This document shows, piece after piece, positions 9,001 to 12,000 of a stretch of 64,000 nt of DNA. Made by a program: the position numbers. This stretch comes from Escherichia coli (GTDB lineage Bacteria > Pseudomonadota > Gammaproteobacteria > Enterobacterales > Enterobacteriaceae): the NCBI RefSeq assembly GCF_048403405.1, contig NZ_CP183129.1; one strand, written 5' to 3'. How positions within the stretch are numbered: the stretch's first letter is position 1; every line of letters begins with the position of its first letter.

Positions 9001-12000
9001 TAAACTGTTCATGCGTTAGTTTCTCCACAGACACAAAACGCCACGACGCCCGGAGCTGCACACTCGCGGGCGTCACTCTTTTCTGGAGCGCAAAAGATTT
9101 TGTAGACCAGTGCTGCATGCTCTTGGAGCTTCGAAATTGACAGATACAACTCATCATTAATTGCTGTCTGCTCGTGTGGCTCCACGACCCCATCTTCGAT
9201 TGCCGAACGAATCTGCTTTGAGTAATTCCCGATCTGTTCGATGACTTCCAGCAGGCGCTGGTTTATATCGGCGTTCTCTACTTCCTCAATTTCAGGAAGC
9301 GATACGAACACCCCACCAGCAGACTGTGCGACAGCATCCGCAATGTAGTGAGTGCCAGCCGCGCGCTGTAAAACCATTGCCCATCCCAGCGGGAAAATCT
9401 GATCGCCATCGGCACGAAGGCGGTTAAATAATGCGTTCTCTGTTACATCCAGCCAGTCAGCTGCTTCAGCGTAACCACCCGGCAACGCTGCGATAGTTTT
9501 TCTGACAGCTTTCACGTACCACTCAGGCTGTTTTTCTACTTTCCAGTGATACTTACCCACGGTTAGCCTCATCGTTCTGTGGTTAAAAATTGAAGGTGTT
9601 CTGTTAATCTTTCGGATAGATATCCGGTCTTAAGTCAGATTTCGTAATTGCACCTGACGTGCATTGCTCAAGTTTTTTCGCCAGCACAAAACTGGCTTTT
9701 TTATAACCATTGAAAACCAGCCGTAAGTAGCCAGGTGTTGAGCCAACTTTTCCGGCCAACTCGCCCTGCTGTTCTTTGGTTAAAGAGTCCCAATACGCTT
9801 TCATACAATATGTACCTCCGGTATACATATTACATGATTGAAATGAACCTTCAAGATACTTGTACCTTATCGGTACAAAGGTTTTAATTTCGTTATGAAA
9901 ACAATCCATGACATCCGGCGGTCTAACGCCAGAAAACTGAGAGATGGTGTTGGCGGAAATTCATCCTTTGCCACCATGATTGATCGCGAGCCAACCCAAA
10001 CCAGCAGGTTTATGGGGGATGGCGCTACTAAAAATATCGGTGACAGCATGGCACGGCACATCGAAAAATGTTTCGACCTGCCTGTCGGATGGCTTGATCA
10101 AGAACACCAGACAACGAACATCACAAAAAAACCTGATGTTTCAATCACTAACAAACAAATAACGTTAGTCCCTGTCATATCATGGGTACAGGCCGGAGCA
10201 TGGAAAGAAGTTGGCTATTCTGAGGTTGATTTGAGCACAGCAGAAACGTATCCCTGCCCTGTACCCTGTGGCGAAATGACTTATATCTTGCGGGTGATTG
10301 GTGATTCAATGATTGATGAGTACCGCCCTGGAGACATGATTTTTGTTGATCCCGAAGTCCCTGCCTGCCACGGTGACGACGTTATTGCATTGATGCACGA
10401 TACAGGCGAAACCACCTTCAAGCGATTGATAGAAGATGGAACACAGCGTTATCTCAAAGCATTAAACCCAAACTGGCCTGAGCCTTACATTAAGATTAAC
10501 GGTAATTGCTCTATAATTGGTACAGTGATTTTCTCGGGAAAACCAAGAAGATACACAATAAAGGCCTAATCAATATTTATGAACCTGCTTCGGCAGGTTT
10601 TTTTATACTTGACAATGTACCCATGAGATACATAATGTATCCAAAAGAAACATGAGGCAGGCAAGATTCAAACAAAATTTGGTTGTAACACGGCGTATGG
10701 CACATGCGTCGTTAGCGGTCTGGGGACGTTAAAGGGGACAATCCACTTCTTGCTCGGGCAAACAAACCAGGTAGTCGGAATGTGCAAGTCAATGATGATG
10801 CTGATAAGACGCCTAACCAGCGTGGCGATCCGGTTTGACGCCTGGGAAGAGACCAGGGTGCAACGATGAGGGCATTTATGGAGCCGCGACAAAGTGTGGT
10901 GCCGTAACTGGCTAAGTGCTCTCAGCGTTGTGGTAATCCGCGAAATGGCGCGGCGGTAAGTATGGCGGGGTTACTCTTTCCCCGTTGAGGACACCGGATT
11001 GTCAGGTTGACCATACGCCTGAGTGACAACCCCACCACAACAGCCACTGCTTTGGCGGTACCAGTTTGTACACTTGCTTCCGGCTGGTACCGCTCTTTTT
11101 ACAAAACAGAGAAGAGCATCACCGGACGACAGGCTCATAACCCAATCCATCCGGGCGGCTGCCACCGCAGGTGTTCTTCTCTGTTTTGTGGAGAAACCAA
11201 CCGACCTTGCAGGGTCGATATGATGAGGAGCAGCAAAATGGCTAGCGAACGCAGTACTGATGTGCAGGCATTTATCGGGGAGCTGGACGGCGGCGTATTT
11301 GAAACCAAAATCGGCGCAGTTCTCAGTGAAGTCGCTTCCGGTGTGATGAACACGAAAACCAAAGGTAAGGTCTCACTCAACCTGGAAATCGAACCATTTG
11401 ATGAGAACCGTGTGAAAATCAAACACAAACTCTCATATGTTCGCCCGACTAACCGCGGGAAAATTTCCGAAGAAGACACCACCGAAACGCCGATGTATGT
11501 CAATCGCGGTGGTCGCCTGACTATTCTGCAGGAAGACCAGGGACAATTACTGACTCTTGCCGGTGAACCTGACGGAAAACTACGCGCAGCAGGTCATTAA
11601 TATCGTTCTTAATTAACTGATTATTTATCTCATCACTGAATATCTTTATATAGTGAGGACTTATTATGTCTCAGAACTTAGACGCAACCGCAATTAATCA
11701 AATCCATGCCCTTATTTCTGCTCAGGGTGTTAATGAAATTATCAGTAATATTGGTGCCGATGCTGTGGCATTGCCTGAGAATTTCCGCATTCATGATCTG
11801 GAAAAATTTAATTTAAATCGCTTCCGTTTCCGTGGTGCGCTTTCCACTGCCAGCATCGATGACTTTACCCGTTATTCTAAAGATCTTGCAGATGAAGGCA
11901 CCCGCTGCTTTATCGATGCTGATAATATGCGTGCCGTCAGTGTACTTAACCTGGGTACTATTGATGAACCAGGTCACGCAGATAACACCGCCACTCTCAA

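What the first reader, a model, noticed from the sequence alone, without database searches (positions are those of the whole stretch)
11101..11189. 17-bp long-range stem-loop immediately upstream of the yfdP-like RBS
ACAAAACAGAGAAGAGC pairs with GTTCTTCTCTGTTTTGT across about 55 nt that contain further GC hairpins. It begins right at the end of the leader terminator and ends about 35 nt before the first early-left RBS. It could be an RNase III processing site, a translational control element or a protein-binding RNA.
Basis: seen in the sequence. Interest (0 to 1): 0.45.

Follow-up and report, generated by a model that had tools for sequence, protein, structure and literature searches.

The report
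Conserved phage leader RNA junction stem
The 17-bp repeat is real and is the closing helix of a conserved, unannotated three-branched RNA in the leader of a prophage early operon, carried by nearly half of complete E. coli genomes, and it most likely marks where the transcript is cut by RNase III, a double-strand-specific ribonuclease.

Summary
Bases 11101-11117 pair with 11173-11189. The helix extends to 20 bp (25 counting the terminator U-tract), dG -43.6 kcal/mol, z -7.2.

It is not an isolated hairpin. It is the closing stem (P1) of a three-way junction. P2 is a highly conserved hairpin, 16 of 17 bases identical to the E. coli initiator-tRNA anticodon arm. P3 is a variable hairpin.

In 51 distinct homologues P1 is 95% paired, and 7 of 20 pairs show compensatory changes. 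G.U pairs outnumber A.C 81 to 8, so it is a + strand RNA.

The element sits after a DicF-like terminator in the untranslated leader between the cI repressor gene and yfdP. It occurs in 2487 of 5426 complete E. coli genomes and matches no Rfam family.

Early-operon copies, including diverged ones in Pantoea and phage P7, keep a 21-26-pair stem of unrelated sequence. Late-operon copies have a 6-bp stem.

In E. coli K-12 prophage Qin, the equivalent long-range helix after DicF is a documented RNase III site. My best reading (0.5) is an RNase III processing stalk. The stem does not sequester the RBS. The function of the tRNA-like core is unknown.

The parts
10609..10636 (+). PL-like sigma-70 promoter (TTGACA-16-CATAAT) just after the cI terminator; the likely start of the leader transcript that carries the element
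   Evidence: Consensus scan, 11 of 12 matches; sequence read. The cI-like repressor is at 9895-10569 and its terminator at 10581-10600. Promoter activity is inferred, not shown.
11055..11100 (+). DicF-like intrinsic terminator hairpin (12-pair stem, 15-nt loop, UCUUUUU tail). It sits at the position DicF holds in Qin, but it lacks the DicF seed.
   Evidence: Fold (z -3.2). It shares TTTGGCGGTAYCAGTTT with K-12 DicF. The 107 nt upstream (10927-11033) are 93% identical to the region just upstream of dicF in K-12 Qin. There is no RF00039 match.
11101..11120 (+). P1, 5' arm of the long closing helix; the finding's first repeat is 11101-11117
   Evidence: Covariation is shown.
11122..11154 (+). P2, the conserved hairpin. 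Basal stem CCGGA/UCCGG, GA/UC, then (G)GG/CCC capped by the 7-nt loop CUCAUAA (11134-11140), followed by AAUCC. It resembles the initiator-tRNA anticodon arm. The window carries A at 11131 where almost all relatives have G.
   Evidence: Alignments A1 and A2. E. coli metZ read directly: CGTCGGGCTCATAACCC against the motif consensus CGACGGGCTCATAACCC, 16 of 17. Basal pair 33-57 switches G-C/A-U 21:14. The non-standard pair at 11131 is flagged in the model alignment.
11155..11168 (+). P3, the variable hairpin (GCGG-CUGCCA-CCGC here; 14 to about 45 nt in relatives)
   Evidence: Three of 4 pairs show double-sided changes, and length varies while the hairpin is kept.
11170..11189 (+). P1, 3' arm of the long closing helix; the finding's second repeat is 11173-11189
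11190..11197 (+). Conserved GGAGAAAC immediately 3' of P1. It can pair weakly (G.U-rich) with the terminator U-tract, which extends P1 to 25 pairs.
   Evidence: Nearly invariant in 52 type-A sequences. The pairing appears in the minimum-energy folds. Its function is unknown.
11202..11217 (+). P4, a small hairpin with a conserved (U/G)GCAG loop region between the junction and the RBS
   Evidence: Weak in the window alone (-10.3 kcal/mol, z -0.5). A hairpin is kept with different stem sequences in relatives (CGACC/GGUCG, GGCGG/CCGCC, GCCCC/GGGGC, GGCUG/CAGCC).
11225..11240 (+). Shine-Dalgarno GAGGAG (11225-11230) and ATG (11238-11240) of the yfdP-like first gene of the early-left operon; not part of the stem
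   Evidence: Phage cdtI annotation of the homologous gene. RefSeq calls it yfdP. Accessibility computed.

Best explanation
The repeat is the closing helix (P1, 20 pairs, up to 25) of a conserved three-way-junction RNA. The RNA lies in the untranslated leader of the repressor-controlled early-left operon of a lambdoid prophage.

Only transcripts that read through the preceding DicF-like terminator contain the junction. In those transcripts the two-turn double-stranded P1 most likely acts as an RNase III processing stalk.

Cleavage across P1 would have three effects. It would separate the upstream small-RNA/terminator portion from the downstream yfdP-yfdQ mRNA. It would leave that mRNA with a new 5' end close to the small P4 hairpin. 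It would release the junction core (P2 plus P3) as a discrete RNA of about 60-75 nt.

Shown here: the structure, its strand, its conservation and its position. Inferred: cleavage by RNase III and its consequences. The role of the conserved initiator-tRNA-like P2 hairpin is not known.
For: 1. Structure. The fold is far more stable than shuffles, and it persists when the whole 602-nt leader is folded.

2. Covariation, MAFFT alignment. On 38 distinct sequences P1 is 95.5% paired, and 5 pairs show double-sided changes. When the 3' partners are slid by 1-3 columns, only 40-49% of cells pair.

3. Covariation, model-fitted alignment. On 51 distinct sequences 7 of 20 P1 pairs show double-sided changes and 94.9% of cells pair.

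4. Strand. P1 has 81 G.U cells against 8 A.C cells. The covariance model scores 115.7 bits on the + strand against 45 on the - strand.

5. Stem length is conserved while sequence is not. Early-operon copies have 21-26 pairs in the window, ST64B, Klebsiella, Citrobacter phiNP, Enterobacter L194, Pantoea L145 and phage P7. Late-operon copies of the same core need only 6 bp.

6. Precedent. In K-12 Qin the sequence right after the DicF terminator forms a long-range helix of about 27 pairs that closes just before the dicB RBS. The published 72-nt DicF species made by RNase III (Faubladier 1990, as summarised in PMC9438474) ends about 19 nt past the 53-nt form, which is inside the 5' arm of that helix. 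The window shares the DicF-upstream module and a DicF-like terminator.

7. Placement. It is the same as the lambda N-leader RNase III hairpin, between leader signals and the first RBS (my own knowledge, not tested here).
Against: There are no cleavage data for this element.

About half of the homologues carry a mid-helix mismatch at pair 18-112. Sequence antideterminants for E. coli RNase III were not evaluated.

The same junction core functions, if it functions, with a 6-bp stem in late operons. So RNase III cannot be the core's general mechanism.

A long stem could simply be a stabilising scaffold.

The covariation sample is dominated by closely related enterobacterial prophages, so counts are inflated by shared ancestry. 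Alignment A4 was fitted to the model.
Confidence: 0.5

Rival explanations
1. P1 is only a structural clamp that holds the junction together. The functional part is the conserved P2 hairpin, which binds a protein or the ribosome in cis, for example as an mRNA stabiliser or translation enhancer for the first gene. No cleavage occurs in the stem.
For: P2 is the most conserved part, with many invariant columns. The core occurs with a short stem in late-operon leaders upstream of holin genes. The downstream gene varies (yfdP, an HD hydrolase, others), so the element goes with operon position and not with one gene.
Against: A 6-bp stem suffices elsewhere. That leaves unexplained why a stem of 21-26 pairs is kept in all early-operon copies, including P7 and Pantoea where the stem sequence is unrelated.
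Confidence: 0.25
2. The junction is a mimic or descendant of initiator tRNA. It would act as a decoy or competitor for factors that read the tRNAfMet anticodon arm: the 30S P site with IF3, MetRS, or VapC-type anticodon nucleases. Alternatively it is a tRNA-like processing signal for RNase P. The long P1 would be the excision stalk in early operons.
For: The consensus is 16 of 17 identical to E. coli metZ positions 24-41, including the GGG/CCC stem and the CUCAUAA loop. The diverged P7 copy keeps GGG-UUCAUAU-CCC-AAUC. Late-operon copies sit next to tRNA genes or tRNA remnants, and their 6-bp P1 is followed by GCC. P2 is about as long as the stacked D-stem plus anticodon stem of a tRNA (sequence reading, an inference).
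Against: ARAGORN and the Rfam tRNA model do not recognise it. Variants with UAU, AAU and CCU in place of CAU exist, one of them (CCU) in a lineage of three contigs. Types B and C keep only two of the three G-C pairs. The window copy itself has A.C at the third pair. No literature supports such a mimic.
Confidence: 0.12
3. It is a transcription-level element: a second terminator, an antiterminator or pause element, or a put-like RNA that modifies RNA polymerase.
For: It lies in operons that are controlled by readthrough of terminators, and no N-like gene lies between cI and yfdP. The window's 3' arm ends in GUUUUGU.
Against: It lies downstream of the terminator it would have to suppress. The U-rich tail is not conserved; relatives have GUUGUGU. 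The model finds nothing in the HK022 immunity and put region (10.9 bits, E 0.63). The put RNA is a two-stem V shape just downstream of the promoter (PMC9378689), not a closed three-way junction.
Confidence: 0.06
4. It is a DNA-level palindrome (operator, recombination or replication site), or a chance repeat.
For: The inverted repeat exists in DNA, and a mosaic boundary lies nearby at about 11050.
Against: G.U outnumbers A.C by 81 to 8, and a U.G pair is conserved in 42 of 51 sequences, so the pairing works only on the + strand RNA. Compensatory changes preserve pairing rather than sequence. Only 2 such repeats occur in 64 kb.
Confidence: 0.03

Closest known systems
RNase III site between dicF and dicB in the E. 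coli K-12 Qin prophage (Faubladier et al. 1990, as summarised in PMC9438474)
   Same: A repressor-controlled early operon of a lambdoid prophage. A long-range helix starts right after the DicF terminator U-tract, encloses several hairpins and closes shortly before the next RBS. The module upstream of DicF is 93% identical to window 10927-11033.
   Different: The enclosed RNA is unrelated. Qin's gives a weak STnc100-like match, and the window's gives none. The window's terminator hairpin lacks the DicF seed and fails RF00039. Cleavage is documented for Qin and only inferred here.
Lambda N-leader RNase III hairpin, phage T7 early-mRNA RNase III sites, and rRNA processing stalks (own knowledge)
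   Same: A helix of about two turns in an untranslated spacer, placed between upstream leader signals and the first RBS, or flanking an RNA that is to be excised.
   Different: There is no sequence relationship. Here the helix closes a conserved three-way junction. No N or nut system is present.
STnc100 / PasD prophage RNAs (RF02076; bioRxiv 10.64898/2026.05.13.724894)
   Same: Structured prophage RNA modules closed by a long-range stem. They occupy the same slot after DicF in Qin and lie upstream of terB in P7, where the junction element also occurs.
   Different: No Rfam match to STnc100 at E up to 10, and a different internal architecture.
Initiator tRNA (tRNAfMet) anticodon arm and tRNA-like RNA elements
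   Same: 16 of 17 identity to metZ positions 24-41, with the same hairpin geometry: a G-C-rich stem and the 7-nt loop CUCAUAA.
   Different: It is not a cloverleaf and is not called by ARAGORN or the Rfam tRNA model. The anticodon-like triplet is not invariant.
HK022 put antiterminator RNA
   Same: A cis-acting structured RNA in the early operon leaders of an N-less lambdoid phage.
   Different: The put RNA has two stems in a V shape and lies directly after the promoter (PMC9378689). The model finds no similarity in HK022. This element lies after the first terminator.

Membership tests
RNase III processing sites (Qin dicF-dicB, lambda N leader, T7 R sites) | Double-stranded RNA helix of about two turns (about 20 bp or more) | tested here: met
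Other early-operon copies have 21-26 pairs.
RNase III processing sites (Qin dicF-dicB, lambda N leader, T7 R sites) | Helix conserved as RNA on the transcribed strand | tested here: met
   Seven of 20 pairs have compensatory changes; G.U to A.C is 81:8; model score 115.7 bits (+) against 45 bits (-).
RNase III processing sites (Qin dicF-dicB, lambda N leader, T7 R sites) | Staggered cleavage by RNase III in vitro or in vivo, dependent on rnc | not testable with these tools
   No experimental data were found for this element.
RNase III processing sites (Qin dicF-dicB, lambda N leader, T7 R sites) | No antideterminant base pairs in the proximal and distal boxes | not tested
   The cleavage position is unknown, so the boxes cannot be placed.
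DicF sRNA (RF00039), considered for the preceding hairpin | Covariance-model score at or above 48 bits, and the 5' seed UUUCUGGUGACG | tested here: not met
   No DicF match at E up to 10 in 10400-11400 or 11010-11110. K-12 DicF scores 76.7 bits with the same tool. Only the hairpin's 5' arm TTTGGCGGTAYCAGTTT and the upstream module are shared.
STnc100 (RF02076) | Match to the covariance model | tested here: not met
   No match at E up to 10. The Qin region gives 34.1 bits, below the gathering score.
HK022 put RNA | Two-stem RNA immediately downstream of PL/PR, with sequence similarity between members | tested here: not met
   The element's model finds no significant match in the HK022 nun-cI-cro region (10.9 bits, E 0.63). 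The architecture and position differ.
tRNA / tRNA-like structure | Cloverleaf recognised by tRNA detectors | tested here: not met
   ARAGORN finds only three tRNA-Leu genes in the window and none at the motif in 22 loci. The Rfam tRNA model does not match.
tRNA / tRNA-like structure | Sequence identity to a tRNA arm in the same hairpin register | tested here: met
   Motif consensus CGACGGGCTCATAACCC against metZ CGTCGGGCTCATAACCC. It is weakened in the window by A at 11131, and in types B and C.
Intrinsic terminator | G+C-rich hairpin directly followed by a conserved U-tract | tested here: not met
   The element was not called by the terminator scan. The 3' tail is GUUUUGUGG here and GUUGUGU(AU)GG in most relatives.

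The most novel reading that the evidence does not exclude
The stem is the excision stalk of a previously undescribed family of phage RNAs built around a copy of the initiator-tRNA anticodon arm. These RNAs would be released from early-operon leaders by RNase III and from late-operon leaders by tRNA-processing enzymes. They would then act in trans, for example by competing with tRNAfMet at the 30S P site or with IF3, or as a decoy for anticodon nucleases such as VapC that cut initiator tRNA. Temperate phages would thereby gain a handle on host translation initiation or on a defence system.
Probability: 0.1. Interest if true: 0.85.

Novelty: new variant of a known kind. Interest (0 to 1): 0.55.

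Why it matters
A structured RNA present in 46% of complete E. coli genomes is annotated nowhere and matches no Rfam family. It also occurs in Shigella, Salmonella, Klebsiella, Citrobacter and Enterobacter phages, in Stx-converting phages, and in diverged form in P1/P7.

If the stem is an RNase III site, it explains how readthrough transcripts of these N-less prophages are split into a DicF-like small RNA and a translatable early mRNA. That would extend the single documented Qin case to a large group of phages.

The conserved initiator-tRNA-like hairpin is an unexplained feature that can be tested directly. The region also shows that prophage operon leaders are assembled from exchangeable structured-RNA modules.

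Tried and rejected
1. Rfam. The whole window at gathering thresholds, and four focused E-value scans, found no family at the element.

2. Known prophage sRNAs. AgvB and AsxR anti-sRNAs, Pas sRNAs and HnrS were read about and excluded by position or by the absence of an Rfam match.

3. The genome-contig scan of the 16-base core. It gave hits in archaea, cyanobacteria and other distant groups. I first suspected a universal RNA. However, about 140 chance hits are expected in 298 Gb (my calculation), the contexts are coding, and ARAGORN finds no tRNA there. Only the Enterobacterales hits are real.

4. A boxA-like CGCUCUU at 11091-11097. Rejected, because relatives have GCCCUUU or GACCUUU at that place.

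5. Cis pairing between the sequence upstream of the terminator and the yfdP translation initiation region. It is predicted in the window but is not conserved in 11 homologues.

6. A GcvB-target-like CACAACA in the 5' arm of many relatives. It was noted and not pursued, and the window has ACAAAACA.

7. A mini-ORF beginning GUG/AUG-GAG-AAA at the end of P1. Its frame and stop vary, and the conserved bases show no third-position pattern.

8. A single core alignment of all three types by MAFFT. It was structurally inconsistent, so the model was built from type A only.

9. Literature searches for the motif sequence, for tRNA-like leaders and for initiator-tRNA mimics found nothing. The 1990 and 1994 DicF papers are not held.
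Full report
**Observation**

ACAAAACAGAGAAGAGC (11101-11117) pairs with GTTCTTCTCTGTTTTGT (11173-11189) as 16 Watson-Crick pairs and one G.U, across 55 nt. The helix continues inward to 20 pairs (11101-11120 with 11170-11189). In minimum-energy folds it continues outward through the preceding U-tract and the following GGAGA to 25 pairs.

Folding 11101-11189 gives -43.6 kcal/mol against -20.7 for shuffles (z -7.2). Only two inverted repeats with a 12-nt seed and arms within 150 nt exist in the 64-kb window. My own estimate is that such a repeat is expected by chance well under once per hundred windows of this size.

**Context**

The region is a lambdoid immunity region.
- A cro-like gene and a cII-like gene lie on the - strand.
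- A cI-like S24 repressor lies at 9895-10569 on the + strand, with its own terminator at 10581-10600.
- A near-consensus promoter, TTGACA-16-CATAAT, lies at 10609-10636.
- About 600 nt without a credible gene follow.
- Then come yfdP-like (ATG 11238), yfdQ-like and HD-hydrolase genes.

The leader is strongly structured as a whole (z -4.9) and it is mosaic.
- 10677-10854 resembles a non-coding stretch of P1/P7/D6 and of phiV10-like phages.
- 10927-11033 is 93% identical to the K-12 Qin sequence immediately upstream of dicF.
- 11055-11100 is a terminator hairpin that shares its 5' arm with DicF. It lacks the DicF seed and fails the Rfam DicF model.

The stem starts one base after that terminator's U-tract. 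It ends 35 nt before the Shine-Dalgarno sequence.

**What the stem belongs to**

Alignment with ST64B, a Klebsiella phage, Citrobacter phiNP, phage LLS and SKA5 was followed by a scan of viral contigs with the conserved core. Together they show a three-way junction.
- P1 is the long helix.
- P2 is a hairpin with a covarying basal stem, then GA/UC, then GGG/CCC capped by CUCAUAA and followed by AAUCC.
- P3 is a hairpin whose length (14 to about 45 nt) and sequence vary.

The junctions are single A residues.

No Rfam 15 family matches it in any form tested. The motif sequence occurs in no paper of the library.

The window-type element, at 90% identity or more, is present in 2487 of 5426 complete E. 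coli genomes, with up to five copies per genome. It is annotated as nothing or as 'hypothetical protein'.

A scan of one genome per species gave real copies only in Enterobacterales: Pseudescherichia, Pseudocitrobacter, Citrobacter, Enterobacter, Pantoea and Mixta. The many hits in unrelated phyla are the number expected by chance for 16 bases in 298 Gb (my calculation), and they lie in coding contexts.

**Is the stem a conserved RNA helix?**

On 38 distinct type-A sequences aligned by MAFFT, P1 is 95.5% paired. Five pairs have changes on both sides, for example C-G/A-U 18:16, G-C/C-G 30:7 and A-U/G-C 27:9. Sliding the partners by 1-3 columns drops pairing to 40-49%.

With 51 distinct sequences aligned to a covariance model, 7 of 20 pairs show double-sided changes. 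That alignment leans towards the structure.

P1 contains 81 G.U cells against 8 A.C cells, including a U.G pair kept in 42 of 51 sequences. The model scores 115.7 bits on the + strand and 45 on the - strand. The helix is therefore an RNA feature of the operon's sense strand, not a DNA palindrome.

One caution applies. The sample is dominated by related prophages, so the counts overstate the number of independent events. The most independent evidence comes from the Enterobacter L194 group, Pantoea L145 and phage P7, whose stems have largely or wholly different sequences yet still pair.

**Two forms of the element**

In several phages the same core occurs in the late operon. It lies downstream of the Q antiterminator gene, just after an intrinsic terminator or a tRNA gene or remnant, and upstream of the holin gene. 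There P1 has only 6 bp and is followed by GCC.

Phages L028 and L013 carry both forms.

Every early-operon copy examined has a closing helix of 21-26 pairs. This includes the diverged copy in the C1-controlled ban operon of P7, between tRNA-Thr and terB. Its stem is 23 pairs of unrelated sequence and its loop is UUCAUAU.

A 6-bp stem is enough to close the junction. The conserved two-turn length in early operons therefore asks for its own explanation.

**Mechanism**

The best explanation is an RNase III processing stalk.

The direct precedent is Qin. The sequence after the DicF terminator folds into a long-range helix of about 27 pairs that encloses four hairpins and closes just before the dicB RBS. 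A 72-nt DicF species is produced from the full-length operon transcript by RNase III (Faubladier 1990, as summarised in PMC9438474). By my coordinates that species ends inside the 5' arm of the helix.

The window has the same upstream module, a DicF-like terminator and a helix in the same slot.

Cleavage would separate the terminated-type small RNA from the yfdP mRNA. It would also free the junction core. This step is inferred and nothing here tests it.

Translational control by occlusion is not supported. The SD and AUG lie outside the stem. A predicted pairing of the window's upstream leader with the initiation region is not conserved in eleven homologues.

A put-like role is unlikely. The element follows the terminator, it differs in architecture from put RNA, and the model finds nothing in HK022.

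It is not a conserved terminator.

**The P2 hairpin**

I read E. coli metZ directly. The motif consensus CGACGGGCUCAUAACCC differs from tRNAfMet positions 24-41 at one base, in the same stem-loop register.

This is unlikely to be chance. I estimate a few in ten thousand for a 13-mer match to any E. coli tRNA. It suggests mimicry of, or descent from, initiator tRNA.

Several facts argue against a strict anticodon-reading function.
- tRNA detectors reject the element.
- Types B and C keep only two G-C pairs.
- The window's own copy has A at 11131, which breaks the third pair.
- Targeted scans found UAU, AAU and CCU variants of the CAU triplet in seven contigs, and none at the third position.

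I therefore keep the mimic idea as a low-probability but interesting reading.

**Comparison and novelty**

A long stem that is probably cut by RNase III, in a phage early leader, is a known kind of feature (Qin, lambda N leader, T7). The particular element has not been described as far as Rfam 15 and the searchable literature show. That element is a widespread three-way junction with an initiator-tRNA-like hairpin, a long-stem form in early operons and a short-stem form in late operons.

I rate it a new variant of a known kind, with interest 0.55. The stem itself is ordinary. Its unannotated, highly prevalent core is not.

Noticed in passing
window 8464-8551 and 8576-8652, - strand: Rfam C4 antisense RNA (82.8 bits) and isrK (55.4 bits) lie side by side in the early-right operon, inside a mechanical 278-aa ORF (8176-9012) that is therefore probably not a gene. 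This looks like a P1/P7-type or Gifsy-type c4/isrK immunity module in a lambdoid prophage.
   Followed up: no
window 10677-10854, + strand: This non-coding leader module is 77-82% similar to a stretch between tRNA-Ile and the ban helicase gene in P1/P7/D6, and to unannotated DNA in phiV10/epsilon15-like phages. It is another exchangeable, probably structured RNA module.
   Followed up: partly
window 10927-11033, + strand: 93% identical to the K-12 Qin sequence immediately upstream of dicF (between ydfC and dicF), and present in most E. coli genomes. Its function is unknown. It folds into several hairpins in the whole-leader fold.
   Followed up: partly
window 11034-11100, + strand: The terminator hairpin sits in the DicF position and shares DicF's 5' arm, but it has a different single-stranded 5' region. 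Relatives carry yet other 5' regions, for example GUGUGUAGUCUU, or CUGGUAGUCG which is close to the DicF seed. This suggests a DicF-related small-RNA family with variable seeds that the Rfam model does not capture.
   Followed up: partly
window 11131: The window has A where almost all relatives have G (GACAGGC against GACGGGC). This creates an A.C mismatch in the G-C stem under the CUCAUAA loop. This copy may be slightly degenerate.
   Followed up: yes
window 11188-11223, + strand: A mini reading frame, GUG-GAG-AAA...UGA, starts at the last bases of P1 and stops in the yfdP Shine-Dalgarno region. Relatives have AUG-GAG-AAA with stops just before or overlapping the yfdP start, and in ST64B it is in frame with the gene. 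Conservation looks nucleotide-level rather than coding.
   Followed up: partly
L300 about 2760-2850 and 2930-3080 (phage P7, NC_050152): Between the junction element and terB, P7 carries two features. One is an unannotated tRNA-like sequence (GGAGAGU...GGUUCGAUUCC...ACUCUCCGCCA). The other is a close relative of the Qin STnc100-like structure that follows DicF. The ban-operon leader is thus a string of structured RNA modules.
   Followed up: no
L189 (gammaproteobacterial MAG) around 4852: A tRNAfMet-like gene lacks the variable loop and the 5' half of the T arm (…GCUCGUCGGGCUCAUAACCC|AAUCCUGCUCCCGCAACCA). It shows that the motif's CUCAUAACCC-AAUCC junction can arise from an initiator tRNA by a single deletion.
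   Followed up: no
window 20064-20385, + strand, and 20677-20722: Three tandem tRNA-Leu(CAG) genes are probably host genes that mark the end of the prophage. They are followed by an A+T-rich 29-nt palindrome.
   Followed up: no
window 1319-1758, - strand: A full-length match to the cspA thermoregulator 5' UTR (156.7 bits), so a cold-shock gene lies near the start of the window.
   Followed up: no
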